A DNA stretch of 64,000 nt, taken from the NCBI RefSeq assembly GCF_054482525.1, contig NZ_CM137006.1; one strand, given 5' to 3'. Shown in pieces: positions 6,001-12,000 of the stretch (position 1 is its first letter; each line of letters begins with the position of its first letter). Made by a program: the position numbers.

Positions 6001-9000
6001 TCCGGTGTCGTCTGATTATCAAAGCGAATCTCCCCTGCGTTAACAATATCGCCGGTACTGACCACATCGCCATTCAGTACCATGCTGGCACCTTTACTGA
6101 GCTGTGTTCTGCCACTCAGACTTCCCCCGGCAGCCAGCGTCAGTGTTCCACGATGTCCGACAGTGGTGTTGCTGGCCAGTCCTCCGGCATTAACCGTAAA
6201 GCTGCCGCCATTTTCCAGCAGCAGTCCGCTGGCCTGACCGGATGTGCCATCAATACTGAACTTACCGCTGGCATTGGTCCCCTCAACAGTGGCACCACTG
6301 TCTGCAATCAGGGCACTACCGGATGTCATGGTGACATCTGTTGCCTTACCACCGGCAGACACTGCCAGGGTTCCGCCGTCATCCACCCGTGTTTTCCAGG
6401 CTGAATGGCCCTCCAGTACATCCAGGCGACCACCGGACTCCAGAACAACACCGTCAGCATTACCGTTTTCCACAGTGAAATTGCCCAGACGGTTGCTGCC
6501 GGTGACGGTTGCCGCCGTACTGGTGACCAGTGCGCCTCCCTGCTTCAGCGTGACATTCGTGGCTGTACCACCGGCGTTCACCTGCAGTTTGCCTTTCTGG
6601 TTAACGGTGGTGAAATCCGCCAGACCACCTTCCTTGACAATCTGCCAGCCGTCACTGTTCACAACAGTGTCAGAGGCTGTACCGCCGTTGTGCACATACT
6701 GGTTACCGCCGTTCAGTGTGGTATCCAGCGCGTAGCCATGTACAGTCTGGTCGCCGCCGGCATAAACCACAGTGGTATTTGCTGTTCCTTCAGCAGCCAC
6801 AATCTGACGACCATTTTCATTGATAGTGGTACGTACGGCATTTCCGCGAACAAACTGCCCGGTATCACCATTTTCTGCATCCGGTCCCCCTTCCGCGCCG
6901 GTATTCACAACCGTGTCGGTTGCCACTGCGCCGGATTTGATGGCCTGCCAGCCCTTCTCATTAATGACGGTACCCGTTGCAATCCCGCCTTCATGTACCC
7001 ACTGCTCACCGCCGTTCAGAGTGGTATTCACTGCCTGCCCCTGAAGGCTCTGTCCGCCTCCGGCACTGATAACCGTGTCTGAAACGCTTCCTCCGGCATT
7101 CACTCTCTGAAGACCACCACCGGTGACAGTAGTGTTGTTGGCGATACCGCCATTTTGTATCCATTGTCCGCCGGTATTGGCCTCGTTATCCGGCCCATAC
7201 TCCAGACCGGTACTGATGGTCATTCCGTTGGCCGTACCGAAGACAATCTGGTTGTCATGATTTGTCAGTGTTCCGCCGCTCACGGTTTCTCCCGCCTGTA
7301 CGACCGTGTCAGCAGCCAGTACCGGGACTGACGTGACAGCAGCAAGAGACAGCGCAACCGCCACACCGGTGCGTTTTCCCCGTGAGCGCGCCAGTTCGGA
7401 AGCCACCACCAGGGTGCCCGTAATGTGATTCCATACCAGCCTGTAGCTGGTGTTCAGATGTCGTTTCATCAGCTTTTCCTTACAGAGGGTGAATAAAAAA
7501 GCCGGTACCCACAAATGTGGATACCGGCAGGTACAAAACAGCATGGTCAGATAAAGTGGTTTTTCCCGGACATAAATGCTTCCCCTCTCTCATCCGCCAG
7601 AGAAGTATCAGTCCGTTGTGTGCAATTCCGTTCTGCATGATGAAGAGATTCAGCTGCCTTTTCGCAGACCATTAACCACTATAAACGATCGATAGCAACG
7701 ATCGATACCTGTTTTATCGATCGTTTTATTCTATTAACGACAAGGCGGTCACGCAAGAGAAACAGGAGGAGTATGAGGGGTTTGTGTCATGTTTTCAGTT
7801 GGTTAACGTAATGTTATCAGGCATTTCCCTGGCAGACTGTTCAGAAGAAAATCCAGTTCCATACAGCGCGGGCAACAGAGACCACCGTGTCACGGACGGC
7901 ACGCAGAACCGTACGGGCAACAGAGGCAACACAGACGCTCTCCGCCGTGTCAAATATCCGGTCCACCGCACCGGTAAACTGTTCACGGGCCTGAGCGCGG
8001 ACAGATTCCGTGCGCAGCTCGTCCTGCAGGCGGGTCATCAGGGGACTGGCGGCATGGTCGGGAAGTGCTGTCATTAGCGCACTGACCAGCGTATCCAGTT
8101 CCCAGCCGGTGCGGGCCGATACGGCAACAACCGGATGTACGGGCCGGAACAGACGGAATACCGCCTCCGTTTTCTCCCGAATGTTCTGTGCCTGTGCGGG
8201 AGAAGGCTGAATGCCGGCCATATCCCATTCATGGCAGGGCTCCGTTTTGTCGGCCTGCGTCACCACAAACAGCACCTGCTGATGTCCCCGGTGCAGGATG
8301 TGTCGCCAGAAATACTCATCCACAGACAGGGCGCGGTCATCGGCTTTAATCAGCCACAGCACCAGGTCCAGTTCGGGCAGAATGTCACGGTACAGGGCTT
8401 CATACTCTGCATCCCTGTCCCGGCTCTCGCCCACCCCGGGCAGGTCAGTGATAACCATGCTGTGACCATGGCCACTCAGACGGAAGCGCCGTACTTCCCG
8501 GGTGCCGGCGTGAACATCACTGACCGGGGTGACCTCCCCCTGAAACAGTGCATTACAGAGTGAGGATTTACCGGCCCCGCTTTTACCCATAATGCCAATC
8601 ACGGGTTCGTGACTGGTGAGTTTGCGCAGATGTTCCAGGATGTGACGGGAAAGCGAGTAAGGCAGGGAGGAGAGCGGTTTTTCAATTGCCTCAATGGCAT
8701 CAGACGGATTCATACATGTATTCCCGGTGAAAAAAGACAAAACCCCGCGCACCGGAAAAGTGGCGGGGGACTCACGGAGATAATATCTGCCTAAAATTAT
8801 TTGGAATGCAGGTATATGCAGCTAATTTGTATCGGCTCATTAGTACAGAACTAAACCTCATCTGACAGTCCGCTCTGTGCCAGGAGCAGACATTGCCAAC
8901 GTTATGACCCTCGATTACATCAAAGAGCCCTATAGCCGAAACCTGCACCATAGCCATCTCTGTAGAATTCGTCCTAGGGGCTTTTAACAGACCTAGTTGT

Positions 9001-12000
9001 ATGGAGCGGAAGGAAATATTAAAGCTCAAGGCGTCAGTCCAGTGCTGTCCTGTTTGCTTACCACACGAAAGAGTGCTGCTTGTACCTGCTAACTAATGGT
9101 ATGCGGAGTGAGGGGGGCGGGTAGAACCAAAAGCACTTACTACGTGTGGCGCTCTCCTGGAAGAGGAGACGTCGAAGTGATAACGCTAACAACAGTCTTA
9201 CTGGTGATGCAAATAATGCTAGCTGGTCTGGTTGCCATCAAGCAACTGACTGGACGCCCGTAAGGGATGGAGGAACTTGATTAAAGGCAGGGGGGTTACC
9301 TCCCCTGCCTTTTTTCGTTTCTGCGCAAGTTAGCTCTGTTATTATAATCCTTACTCACACTGTAAGGACATAGTTCAAATGACTGAATGGCTTAATGCAC
9401 ATTTTGGTGCAGACGCAGCTACCTATCTTAGCTTATTAGTCGGCGTACTGGCACTGTTTGGTATTGGGGGCGGTGTTACATATAGAATCAGACAGCAAAA
9501 CAACATAAAACAGAAGGCAAAGAAAACCGAGGGTGATGTGAACCAGGCCGGGCGGGATATTAATCAGACCACCAACGTTTACCACACATCCAATGAATCT
9601 ACTGAGGACCCTGTAAAAAAAAAGCAAGATGAACATGATCTGAAGATAATCGACCAGATCCTTGAATTGCTGCCTTATGAGGATACTACTCAATGGGTTG
9701 AGCAGAGCTACCTGAGCGGTATACGGCAAGATGTTTGCTTAAACATTGAAAAAGCTGAAAAATTTAGCGGTGAAAAGTATCGGTTATTCAATACTGAAGT
9801 GAATGGTGCGAAAGACGCTTTTTTGGACGCTATGACCGCATACGTAGATAGTACGCTACCATTTATGAGTGTTGATTACCCGAACAGAAAGCCAGTGATG
9901 CTAAGCCTTCCCCATGACTGGAAGAGTAAGAGTGTTGAATCGGAGGCAAACTTCCGCTTTCATCAGCAAAATGTGCGTGAAACATCGGGGGGGATGATTG
10001 CGCGCTATGAGGATTTTGTCAGGACATTTAAGGCTCATGGATTCATAAGCGATAAACTGTAAAGGCGCAGTGGGTCAGCGAACACCGCAACGACAGAACC
10101 GCGTAAGCGGTAAAATCAGCTTGTTAACTGGCGAGTTTATAGCCGTCCCTCCGGGGCGGCTTTTTTATGACTATAATCGACAGAATCACCTGAACGTCCA
10201 GGTGGGTTTCCCTGACAGGACGTCAAGGAATGTTCGCTTTGTGCCAGGAGCGGACGTTGCCAGCATTGAGTTTTCAGTTTTCAAAGGTATATCTTTAGAT
10301 TTAGTTCACTTAGAATGAGCGTGTTAAAGTTTTCGGTTATGTGAGTATATTGAACATAACAAATAAACAATAATTTTTGTATTCCATTTAAGATATAAAA
10401 AAGAGGGATTTGAGTTATGTACGATTATAGTTTTTTACTTACTCCATCTACAGGATTTGTTAAAGGATTATGTGGAGTTTGGTCGAATGATTTCTCTATA
10501 AATGATGATTCTGACTCTGATTTAGGGCAAACAGATATTCATTTACTTTCATCTCCTCATTTGAATATCATATCCGACCCAAATGAATTGGCTTCCAAGT
10601 TAAAAGGTTTGTTGATGCTCATGAACGGCGCACTTAGCGTTCTTTATGGTTTTGAAAGATATCAATCTTTTGGTCCTCTTTCTATTTCTGGAAGTGAAGG
10701 CATTAATTACTCGGAAATATGCGGCTTTAAATCAATGGATGTAACTCAGGTAAATCCCTTTAATTTCCATGACATACAGCAACCACACCCTCGCGCTGAT
10801 AATTTTTCACGATTAATTAATTTATCATCTAAACATGAATCCTTACGTGTTGTTTTAGGTATGTGTGCCTTAGGTTATGATTGGGTTAATCTTTATCGTT
10901 TGTGGGAAACAATTAGAGAATATGTATATGATAAATATGTGAAAGGTATACTAAATTTTCCCGACGCTTATAAAGGCAAGAAATATCAGAGAGATAAAGT
11001 AATTAGCATGGCTTTTAATATTGATGAAAAGGAAATCAGCAGATTCACGGGCACTGCTAATAGCTTTGAACTGTTAGGGTATCTTGCGAGACATGGAAAG
11101 GGAAGTTCCGGAGGGATATTAAAAAATCCGATGTCAAGAGTTGACGCAAGCAATTTCGTACACAAAGCAACTTACAAATATTGTAAGTTATTTTTGATGT
11201 AAGTAAAAAGTTGAAGCTATAATACTCAAAGTATCGAAAACTACGTTCGTCGTGCACTCGAAAACAATATGCTTATTGTGTCTGCACTAATTACTCAAGG
11301 TCCGAGAAAAATGGCGAAGCTCATCTTTTTCAGGCTTCGCCAACTTGAGTTATTGGTTAAAATTCATTTAGGAATAATAGAATGCAATTCGTGACTCACC
11401 TGGATTTCATAGTGTTTCAATAGTTCTCCGATGTTAATTCCTACTACCTTACGAACTGCGCCGAGGGAGAAGTTAAGCTCCTCAATGCCCGGCCGATCTG
11501 GCGTTGAATTCATATAGTGTCGGCACGCACGGACAATTGACTCGACGATCAACGATAGCGGAGACTCAGGTGCAATCTCGGAGCGAATCGCCGTAAGAGA
11601 GAGTCGGAGCTCCTTCAAAGAATCCGAGACTCGTGCTGGATCCTCTTGAGCATATGGCAGATAAAGAGAACTCTTGTCTTCCAATAAATGGATCACCCGC
11701 AGAGCAATTTTCTCGTCTGGGCGATGCGATAGAAATTGAAACATTAGCCTCTTTCCTCCCTCCAAGCACTCCTTCATTAGTGATTCGTGGTCACGTTTCC
11801 ATTTTCGCAAATACTCGGCGGGGTAGCCCATACCGCCATTCTTATCAACTAAATCAGCACAAGCTCCGCACAACCATATAGCATTTTTTATGCTCTTCCG
11901 CTCTGTTTCTGACTGAGACATGTCATAGCGCGGTCCGCCAGGGCTCGCCGCGCAGATATGCGCCGCCTCACCCGTCTTGATAGAAAGATTTTCCGCCAAT

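What the first reader, a model, noticed from the sequence alone, without database searches (positions are those of the whole stretch)
8862..10270. Imperfect direct repeats flanking the 227-aa gene
The sequence CTGACAG...CGCT(C/T)TGTGCCAGGAGC(A/G)GAC(A/G)TTGCCA(A/G)C(G/A)TT occurs at 8862..8905 and again at 10211..10270, bracketing about 1.3 kb containing the 227-aa ORF. This may mark an insertion or a recombination footprint.
Basis: seen in the sequence. Interest (0 to 1): 0.35.

Follow-up and report, generated by a model that had tools for sequence, protein, structure and literature searches.

The report
Recombination sites bracketing a gene cassette
The two repeats are copies of a 24-base site that marks the edges of swappable gene cassettes in E. 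coli prophages and genomic islands, and the 227-aa gene between them is one such cassette, which bears on how these hotspots exchange their cargo.

Summary
The repeat is real: 8868-8903 and 10232-10267 match at 30/36 bases, and no shuffle of the window reproduces the pair.

It is not a one-off footprint. Both copies are "R-units" (GTCCGCTC-TGTGCCAG-GAGCGGAC). This motif is the distal end of the "left inverted repeat" annotated in 2003-04 GenBank records of the variable Z region of P2-like phages.

A partner "L-unit" lies at 12266-12289. Together the units divide window 8.9-12.4 kb into two cassettes: the 227-aa gene, and a 261-aa gene plus an HNH gene.

The decisive comparison is between two islands. 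E. coli Nissle 1917 has one unit and no 227-aa gene. Strain 144 has the same flanks with two units and the gene. The difference is exactly 1,363 nt, and the exchange point lies within 17 nt.

In 48 other loci the units alternate R-cargo-L-(about 20 nt)-R, and 78 of 80 neighbouring pairs share one polarity.

In some arrays the short L-R gap instead holds a 200-aa tyrosine recombinase gene with an intact catalytic set. It is present in 908 of 5,426 E. coli genomes and absent from this window.

The most likely mechanism is site-specific cassette insertion and excision. This works like an integron but is not one. The catalysis itself is inferred, not shown.

The parts
8836..8867 (+). Conserved backbone flank upstream of the yeeP-family GTPase gene (7841-8713, minus strand), ending in ATCTGACA. 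It is homologous to the P2 Z-region 'left inverted repeat'.
8868..8891 (+). R-unit A: GTCCGCTC-TGTGCCAG-GAGCAGAC. This is the left boundary of cassette 1. Its right arm (AGCAGAC) always travels with the 227-aa cassette.
8892..8903 (+). Semi-conserved tail after the unit (ATTGCCAACGTT; family consensus RTTRCYRAC).
8904..9378 (+). Non-coding leader of cassette 1. It holds a possible 28-aa hydrophobic ORF (9177-9263, GTG start) and a strong terminator-like hairpin (9283-9312). The predicted fold is more stable than shuffles (z = -3.2).
   Evidence: No family match.
9379..10062 (+). 227-aa ORF, the cargo of cassette 1 (called X here). It belongs to an orphan family with no Pfam, PADLOC, PHROG or NCBIfam match.
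10141..10167 (+). Terminator-like hairpin after the 227-aa ORF.
10196..10221 (+). Degenerate L-unit (GTCCAGGTGGGTTTCCCTGACAGGAC), preceded by AAC.
   Evidence: Read from the sequence against the composite alignment. It falls below the nhmmer threshold.
10232..10255 (+). R-unit B: GTTCGCTT-TGTGCCAG-GAGCGGAC. This is the junction between cassettes 1 and 2. Homology among genomes breaks straight after it.
10256..10267 (+). Tail after unit B (GTTGCCAGCATT).
10417..11202 (+). 261-aa ORF, the first gene of cassette 2. It has no family match.
11364..12116 (-). 250-aa HNH-type endonuclease gene, the second gene of cassette 2. It matches the PADLOC candidate family PDC-M68A.
12266..12289 (+). L-unit C: GTCCGCTC-CTCGCTCA-AAGCAGAC. 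This is the right boundary of cassette 2. It aligns with the start of the P2 'right inverted repeat'. Homology to the P2-like prophage copies of the block ends exactly here.
12290..12374 (+). Spacer, degenerate R-unit D (about 12311-12331) and the conserved tail (...TGTGAGTTAATCAACGGAGAGCAGGTCAA). Together with unit C these form a decayed L-spacer-R junction element.

Best explanation
Copies A and B are two co-oriented R-type boundary sites of a cassette array. The 227-aa gene with its leader and one site is a discrete 1,363-nt cassette. It has been inserted into, or can be lost from, a single pre-existing site by recombination inside the 24-nt unit.

The array in the window reads: backbone - A - [227-aa gene] - (degenerate L)-B - [261-aa gene + HNH gene] - C-(degenerate D).

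Shown here:
- the site anatomy;
- the alternating, polar arrangement of sites in many loci;
- an exact filled-versus-empty pair of islands;
- movement of the same cassette among four kinds of mobile element.

Inferred:
- the exchange is site-specific;
- it is catalysed by a 200-aa tyrosine recombinase that other arrays encode inside an L-R junction;
- because this window has no such gene, the enzyme would have acted in trans or in an ancestor;
- R x R recombination would excise a circle carrying the cargo plus one hybrid site, and that circle could re-enter any R site.
For: 1. The repeat is real and non-random.

2. Both copies sit at homology breakpoints. About 4,200 genomes share the sequence up to copy A and then diverge. 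Of the 32 genomes that share the region up to copy B, 18 diverge after it.

3. There is an exact empty/filled pair. Nissle 1917 (L195) 10163-10537 matches strain 144 (L008) 4400-4773, and L195 10514-12729 matches L008 6113-8328. The 24-nt unit of Nissle matches both A and B. Arm polymorphisms place the exchange within CGCTCTGTGCCAGGAGC.

4. The cassette keeps its own arm variants (AGCAGAC on the left site, GTTCGCT on the right site) in P2-like prophages, yeeP-type (CP4-like) islands and an e14-like prophage, where the left site is split by an IS. Its right end (unit B) is also kept on an F-like plasmid. Its right-hand neighbour changes between these contexts.

5. The whole block 8892-12289 is 99.4% identical in P2-like prophage contigs, and homology ends at the outer edge of unit C.

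6. The arrangement is regular. In 48 distinct multi-unit loci, 78 of 80 neighbouring units are co-oriented. R-to-L gaps have a median of 1.8 kb (cargo). L-to-R gaps have a median of 44 nt. P2-EC46 shows LIR-ORF1-composite-ORF2-RIR.

7. Nine right-flank families are each joined to more than one left-flank family through the same core.

8. There is a candidate enzyme. It consists of the PF00589 catalytic domain only, with invariant R51, K79, H148, R151, H174 and Y183. An L-unit lies about 45 nt before its ATG and an R-type end about 25 nt after its stop in 11 of 12 distinct enterobacterial loci. In E. coli, homology around it ends at the outer edges of those units. Distant homologues (58-65% identity) keep inverted flanks of a different sequence.

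9. A 55%-identical homologue of the 227-aa protein again lies between an R-like and an L-unit.
Against: - No recombinase of this family is in the window.
- Only 908 of 5,426 E. coli genomes carry it, whereas about 4,200 carry the site.
- None of the cultured enterobacterial phages in the collection encodes a close homologue.
- There is no experimental evidence, and no circular intermediate has been seen.
- The L-unit to the left of copy B is badly decayed.
- The backbone flanks to the left of copy A are themselves about 80-98% alike over tens of bases in different elements. Ordinary homologous recombination could therefore supply one of the two crossovers when whole blocks are swapped.
- I could not read Nilsson et al. 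2004, so I do not know how much of this anatomy is already described.
Confidence: 0.6

Rival explanations
1. This is homology-driven exchange, not site-specific recombination. The units are simply short conserved sequences at module borders. RecA or phage Rad52-type recombinases use them, together with the longer conserved backbone flanks, to swap cargo.
For: - Most arrays have no recombinase gene nearby.
- The backbone flank to the left of copy A is conserved over about 60-110 nt between P2 and island backbones.
- Whole multi-cassette blocks move together.
Against: - In the Nissle versus strain 144 pair, the sequences on the inner sides of A and B share nothing but the unit. The exchange interval is at most 17 nt. 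From general knowledge, that is far below the length RecA needs.
- The strict polarity and R/L alternation are not expected from passive homology patches.
- A dedicated recombinase gene embedded in the junction is also not expected.
Confidence: 0.2
2. The mobile thing is the junction element itself, an IS-like unit (L-recombinase-R) with about 70-nt MITE-like derivatives (L-18 nt-R). These insert between genes. The 'cassettes' are just whatever lies between two insertions.
For: - The recombinase module is bounded by imperfect 16-nt terminal inverted repeats (GTCCGCTCCTCGCTCA ... TGTGCCAGGAGCGGAC).
- It has a miniature version lacking the gene.
- That miniature version folds into a long hairpin (z = -3.6 to -3.8).
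Against: - The one clean polymorphism found is cargo plus one unit, not a unit alone.
- No target-site duplication is visible at unit edges.
- The same cargo is found with different neighbours, joined through the core.
Confidence: 0.1
3. The units are integron attC-type sites (a cluster of attC sites lacking an integrase) and are recombined by an integron integrase such as IntI1.
For: - The composite is an imperfect palindrome of about 70 nt, often flanked by AAY...RTT. This recalls the AAC/GTT of attC.
- A 39%-identical homologue of the 227-aa protein is a bona fide cassette in a Vibrio alginolyticus chromosomal integron.
Against: - The associated recombinase is 200 aa and scores 15.9 bits against the integron-integrase model, whose cut-off is 265.
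- Cargo genes lie on either strand.
- There is no sequence likeness to the Vibrio attC sites.
- An IntegronFinder/HattCI survey of 10,705 phage genomes reports no P2-like phage among its hits (PMC9892861).
Confidence: 0.05
4. The motif is a regulatory or terminator hairpin, or a fragment of a coding sequence, and was duplicated by chance with the flanking DNA.
For: - The unit is a hairpin with a 7-8 bp stem.
- It translates to VR[SF]VPGAD in one frame, with mostly conservative changes (as the sequence shows).
Against: - No T-run follows the hairpin.
- The folding energies of the single units are ordinary (z = -0.2 to -0.9).
- The reading frame is closed by stop codons 2-20 codons upstream in most contexts.
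- Cargo orientation is not fixed.
Confidence: 0.05

Closest known systems
Inverted repeats flanking the Z (Z/fun) region of P2-like coliphages (Nilsson, Karlsson and Haggard-Ljungquist 2004, Mol Biol Evol 21:1; GenBank AJ512676-AJ512685)
   Same: - Copy A aligns with the distal end of the annotated 113-nt 'left inverted repeat', and unit C with the start of the 'right inverted repeat'.
- Cargo sits between them.
- A review summarises that paper as proposing site-specific recombination between phages and bacteria at these repeats (PMC8987985).
- The window's two-cassette block is itself found in the Z region of P2-like prophages.
   Different: - Here the sites lie in a yeeP/Ag43 (CP4-type) island, not a phage.
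- There is an internal second R copy, giving a direct rather than an inverted pair.
- I did not find the unit and composite arrangement or the embedded 200-aa recombinase in any paper I could search. The 2004 paper itself was not available to me.
Integrons (IntI integrase, attI, attC, cassette arrays)
   Same: - Arrays of discrete cassettes are separated by palindromic sites about 70 nt long with a fixed polarity.
- Insertion and loss are of 'cargo plus one site'.
- Many arrays lack the recombinase.
- A homologue of the cargo gene is a true integron cassette in Vibrio.
   Different: - The recombinase is a 200-aa enzyme with the catalytic domain only, not an IntI.
- It sits inside a junction rather than beside a dedicated attI.
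- Cassettes may hold several genes on either strand, up to a 5.5-kb transporter operon.
- The site sequence is unrelated.
pdif modules of Acinetobacter plasmids (XerC/XerD-dependent modules flanked by inverted dif-like sites); recalled from general knowledge
   Same: Discrete cargo modules are flanked by short recombinase core sites in inverted orientation and are shuffled among replicons.
   Different: - The sites here bear no visible likeness to dif.
- The arrays have their own small recombinase family.
- I did not test this formally.
Small tyrosine recombinases of the FimB/FimE size class, and the Rci shufflon
   Same: - The size is about 200 aa.
- The protein is essentially a catalytic domain.
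- It acts, presumably, on short inverted repeats next to its own gene. Weak NCBIfam matches to 'tyrosine-type DNA invertase' support the likeness.
   Different: - Those systems invert one fixed segment.
- Here the segments differ from genome to genome and are gained and lost.
IS element / MITE pairs and REP/BIME elements
   Same: - There is an autonomous-looking unit (L-recombinase-R) and gene-less miniatures with the same ends.
- The units are palindromic.
   Different: - There are no target duplications.
- Copy number is low and confined to mobile-element cargo regions: three sites in 64 kb.
- The associated enzyme is a tyrosine recombinase, not a DDE or HUH transposase.

Membership tests
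P2 Z-region inverted-repeat cassette sites (GenBank AJ5126xx annotation) | Sequence homology to the annotated 'left inverted repeat'. | tested here: met
   blastn of window 8836-8912 hits the feature 'left inverted repeat' in AJ512676, 80, 81, 82, 83 and 85. Alignment.
P2 Z-region inverted-repeat cassette sites (GenBank AJ5126xx annotation) | An inverted partner ('right inverted repeat') on the far side of the cargo. | tested here: met
   Unit C at 12266-12289 aligns with the start of the RIR of P2-EC46, -EC58 and -EC67 and is found by nhmmer.
P2 Z-region inverted-repeat cassette sites (GenBank AJ5126xx annotation) | The repeats bound a region whose gene content varies between otherwise similar elements. 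| tested here: met
P2 Z-region inverted-repeat cassette sites (GenBank AJ5126xx annotation) | Recombination at the repeats is site-specific. | not testable with these tools
   Only comparative evidence is available: an exchange interval of at most 17 nt. It needs an enzyme assay.
Integron | An IntI-type integrase (about 320 aa, with the additional domain). | tested here: not met
   The associated recombinase is 200 aa. TIGR02249 integron integrase scores 15.9 bits against a cut-off of 265. There is no recombinase of this family in the window.
Integron | attC sites with conserved AAC...GTT ends and the attC fold. | tested here: inconclusive
   By my reading of the 14 aligned composites, AAC or AAT precedes about 9 and RTT follows about 10. 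No attC model was available here. A published attC scan of phage genomes lists no P2-like phage.
Integron | Cassettes mostly of one promoterless gene, co-oriented. | tested here: not met
   Cargo lies on both strands and can hold several genes.
IS / MITE | Terminal inverted repeats around a transposase or recombinase gene, with gene-less derivatives. | tested here: met
IS / MITE | Target-site duplication, and presence/absence of the element alone. | tested here: not met
   No duplication is seen at unit edges. The only clean indel found is cargo plus unit.
REP/BIME | High copy number across chromosomal intergenic regions, with an associated RAYT (HUH) gene. | tested here: not met
   There are three sites in 64 kb, all inside the island cargo. 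The associated gene is a tyrosine recombinase.
Xer/dif-type modules | A 28-bp dif-like core bound by XerC/XerD. | not tested
   No likeness by eye. No formal comparison was run.

The most novel reading that the evidence does not exclude
The units, the L-spacer-R junctions and the 200-aa tyrosine recombinase together form a self-contained cassette-exchange platform, integron-like in logic but unrelated in parts. It would serve the cargo hotspots of P2-like phages, lambdoid prophages, yeeP/CP4-type islands and plasmids across Gammaproteobacteria. That would explain how these hotspots trade defence and other genes.
Probability: 0.45. Interest if true: 0.8.

Novelty: new variant of a known kind. 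Interest (0 to 1): 0.62.

Why it matters
Variable 'hotspots' in P2-like phages and in E. coli islands are now mined heavily for anti-phage systems. The papers I could read leave the swapping mechanism open or speculative. Rousset et al. 2022 (PMC9122126) invoke cos ends and homologous recombination. A 2024 hotspot survey does not mention repeats.

This finding gives:
- a defined 24-nt site;
- a simple arrangement rule that can be scanned for;
- an exact empty/filled pair of islands;
- a named candidate enzyme, WP_001305361.1, present in E. coli Nissle 1917.

The mechanism therefore becomes directly testable. The unit arrangement would also delimit cassettes precisely. That sharpens guilt-by-association searches for new defence genes, such as the orphan 227-aa and 261-aa proteins here.

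Tried and rejected
1. Coding hypothesis. The repeat translates to VR[SF]VPGAD[IV]A.. with conservative changes. However, in about 100 contexts the frame is closed 2-20 codons upstream. Rejected.

2. Known RNA family. There is no Rfam hit at gathering score in this region, and only chance-level hits at E up to 10.

3. Terminator, sigma-54 promoter, Ogr-type TGT-N12-ACA site, nut/boxA, dif, invertase (gix/hix) and shufflon sfx sites. I compared these by eye from memory and none fits. They were not pursued.

4. tRNA-linked att site. One recurrent left flank looked like a tRNA, but ARAGORN finds none.

5. 'Empty' site for the second cassette (261-aa gene directly behind a backbone site). None was found in E. 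coli genomes or in IMG/VR.

6. Function of the 227-aa protein. There are no hits in Pfam, PADLOC, PHROGs or NCBIfam, and only 16 homologous clusters.

7. Reading Nilsson et al. 2004, Odegrip et al. 2006 and Svab et al. 2013. None is held in the library.

8. Literature search for the motif sequence and for the recombinase accession. This returned nothing relevant.

9. Strict local alignment of the recombinase gene's two flanks. This fails for the enterobacterial group, whose ends match only 13/16, and works only for the distant group.

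
Full report
**Setting**

The window is E. coli. It is 100% identical to strain AH62 over the region searched.

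The finding lies in a CP4-type island. Its conserved part carries CbtA/YeeU-family toxin-antitoxin genes, antirestriction and DUF932 genes, Ag43 (4623-7544, minus strand) and a yeeP-family GTPase gene (7841-8713, minus strand). Then comes variable cargo: three hypothetical genes, and a type I restriction system with darT/darG inside it. An integrase gene next to phoH lies about 48 kb further on.

**The observation**

Positions 8868-8903 and 10232-10267 match at 30 of 36 bases with a spacing of 1364. The 23-nt core occurs nowhere else in 64 kb, and no shuffle gives two copies. The pair brackets the 227-aa ORF at 9379-10062.

**Both copies are homology breakpoints**

About 4,200 of 5,426 complete E. 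coli genomes share the sequence upstream of the GTPase gene up to about 8882-8900 and then diverge. Only 30 continue into the 227-aa module.

The region around copy B is found in 32 genomes. In 18 of them homology stops at 10255-10260. In strain 144 the sequence changes immediately after ...GGAGCGGAC.

**The motif is a known phage feature**

Isolated hits of the motif lie in P2-like prophages, directly after the tail-fibre assembly gene at the start of the variable region before the sheath gene.

In the phage collection the motif falls under a feature annotated 'left inverted repeat' in AJ512676-AJ512685. These records are the 'proviral Z-region' sequences of P2-EC30, 46, 48, 53, 58 and 67. 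Each also has a 'right inverted repeat' beyond the cargo.

By their titles and accession series I take these to be the records of Nilsson et al. 2004, which I could not read. [quoted passage not shown]

**Anatomy**

An IMG/VR scan with the 16-nt core returned 120 loci. Their comparison shows two unit types:
- R-unit: GTCCGCTC-TGTGCCAG-GAGCGGAC, usually followed by RTT.
- L-unit: GTCCGCTC-CTCGCTCA-CAGCGGAC, usually preceded by AAY. Its reverse complement matches the R-unit at 21 of 24 bases.
- Composite: an L-unit, about 18 nt (CTTCAGCTCAGT...) and an R-unit, about 70 nt in all. It folds into a long hairpin (z = -3.6 to -3.8).

Profile searches find exactly three sites in the window: A (8868-8891), B (10232-10255) and a composite with a good L-unit C (12266-12289) and a decayed R-unit D.

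Just left of B there is a decayed L-unit (10196-10221).

The window therefore reads: A - [227-aa gene] - L'B - [261-aa gene, HNH gene] - C D.

**The arrangement is general**

P2-EC46 reads LIR(R) - ORF1 - full composite - ORF2 - RIR(L). An F-like plasmid reads B - GNAT gene - composite.

Over 48 distinct multi-unit loci, 78 of 80 neighbouring units are co-oriented:

| Transition | Count | Median gap |
|---|---|---|
| R to L | 37 | 1.8 kb (cargo) |
| L to R | 23 | 44 nt |

The remaining R-R and L-L neighbours are cases where the partner unit has decayed below threshold, as in the window.

**Cassettes move through the core**

The 227-aa module occurs in these contexts:

| Context | Evidence |
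|---|---|
| Behind the P2 repeat in prophage contigs | |
| Behind the GTPase-gene backbone in islands | |
| In an e14-like prophage at icd, where an IS110-family element has split copy A | |
| Truncated, on an F-like plasmid | |

Its right neighbour is the 261-aa gene, a 366-aa gene or a GNAT gene.

The block 8892-12289 is 99.4% identical in P2-like prophage contigs, and homology ends at base 12289, the outer edge of unit C.

Nine right-flank families are joined to two or more left-flank families through the same core. Arm variants follow the flank on their own side.

**The decisive pair**

Nissle 1917 and strain 144 have the same backbone (97.6% identity) and the same downstream cargo (99.6%). 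They differ by exactly the 227-aa module plus one unit, 1,363 nt. The single Nissle unit matches both A and B.

| Site | Left arm | Right arm |
|---|---|---|
| A (strain 144) | GTCCGCTC | AGCAGAC |
| B (strain 144) | GTTCGCTC | AGCGGAC |
| Nissle 1917 single site | GTCCGCTC | AGCGGAC |

The exchange therefore lies within a 17-nt interval.

**A candidate enzyme**

In strain 144 and in Nissle 1917 the junction after the next cassette holds a 200-aa gene instead of the 18-nt spacer.

- It has only the Phage_integrase catalytic domain (69 bits).
- R51, K79, H148, R151, H174 and Y183 are invariant across homologues down to 58% identity.
- In 11 of 12 distinct enterobacterial loci an L-unit lies about 45 nt before the ATG and an R-type end about 25 nt after the stop. 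Unrelated sequence lies outside these.
- In E. coli the gene is in 908 of 5,426 genomes, and homology ends at the outer edges of those units.
- The family has thousands of clusters across Gammaproteobacteria, with over 80% identity between Escherichia, Proteus, Idiomarina and Cycloclasticus.
- Distant members keep inverted flanks of a different sequence that still contain GGCCAGAAGC.
- It has no close homologue in cultured enterobacterial phages and no sequence match to a solved structure.
- It is absent from the window.

**Mechanism**

The most economical reading is site-specific recombination at the units. R x R would excise a circle of cargo plus one site. The reverse reaction would insert that circle at any R site. 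R x L would invert a segment.

The catalysis, the role of this particular enzyme and its action in trans are inferred. The rest is shown by comparison.

The rivals are weighed in the rival explanations: short-homology recombination, a mobile junction element, true attC sites, and a regulatory hairpin.

**Relation to integrons**

The logic is alike, and a 39%-identical homologue of the 227-aa protein is a cassette between VCR-type attC sites in a Vibrio alginolyticus chromosomal integron.

The recombinase, the site sequence and the gene content of cassettes do not fit the integron definition. A published attC scan of 10,705 phage genomes lists no P2-like phage.

**The cargo**

The 227-aa protein has a hydrophobic N-terminus, no family match and only 16 homologous clusters. 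A 55%-identical homologue again lies between an R-like and an L-unit, next to phage tail genes.

Its 475-nt leader is unusually structured (z = -3.2). It holds a possible 28-aa hydrophobic ORF followed by a strong terminator-like hairpin. This remains unexplained.

**Verdict**

The repeat is a genuine cassette boundary.

The sites were annotated two decades ago in P2-like phages. In the literature I could reach, I did not find the array arrangement, the exact empty/filled pair, the spread over four kinds of mobile element, or the embedded small recombinase.

Noticed in passing
L009 4508-5999 (strain Z1323PEC0014; corresponds to window 8884/8885): An IS110-family element is inserted exactly inside the R-unit, between GTGCCAGG and AGCAGAC. 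Members of this family are known to target specific hairpin-like sequences, so the unit may be a preferred target.
   Followed up: partly
L201 6001-6690 (Vibrio alginolyticus contig JAMQWG010000042.1): A 39%-identical homologue of the 227-aa protein is a cassette in a chromosomal integron, flanked by VCR-type attC sites and surrounded by toxin-antitoxin cassettes. The same gene family is therefore packaged by two different cassette systems.
   Followed up: partly
window 8904-9316: The non-coding leader of the 227-aa gene folds much better than shuffles (z = -3.2). It contains a GTG-initiated 28-aa hydrophobic ORF (9177-9263) with a GGAG 8 nt upstream, followed by a 13-bp GC-rich terminator hairpin (9283-9312). 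It has the look of a type I toxin, but there is no family match.
   Followed up: partly
L195 12909-20526 (E. coli Nissle 1917 island): The Nissle array carries non-defence cargo between units. One cassette is a 5.5-kb TonB-dependent receptor plus ABC transporter operon (R at 14780, L at 20498). Another is an ETEC_3214-family gene.
   Followed up: partly
L048, L078, L095, L097, L115 (IMG/VR contigs): R-units lie 22-70 nt downstream of umuC-like (Y-family polymerase) genes. In L203 a cassette sits between tail genes and a umuD-like gene. This suggests another recurrent backbone position for these arrays.
   Followed up: no
window 8800-8867 versus P2 gene G 3' end (alignment A2): The island sequence upstream of the GTPase gene aligns with the last codons of the P2 tail-fibre assembly gene G plus the repeat. 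The island's array entry point may therefore descend from a phage tail-fibre locus.
   Followed up: no
window 13375-23100: darT and darG sit between hsdS and hsdR of a type I restriction-modification operon, followed by an M48 metallopeptidase gene.
   Followed up: no
window 59843-59870, 27861-28205, 48018-48134: Other Rfam hits at gathering score were seen: a lone CRISPR-DR4 repeat (minus strand), the sRNAs STnc490 and STnc100, and an ALIL pseudoknot (IS3-type frameshift signal).
   Followed up: no
L032 8296-9596 and 11638-12791; L123 8194-9523 and 10374-11673: In P2-like prophage contigs the 227-aa / 261-aa block is interrupted by 1.1-1.3 kb insertions with short duplications (9 nt at window 10147-10155), presumably IS elements. 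This explains the 2.7-kb and 4.0-kb spacings of the repeat pair there.
   Followed up: partly
L196 8841-14253 (strain WCHEC035125, lambdoid prophage next to rspAB): A three-cassette array with the recombinase in the middle junction sits in the early region of a Qin/Rac-like prophage, ahead of hokD. This is a fourth kind of host element.
   Followed up: partly
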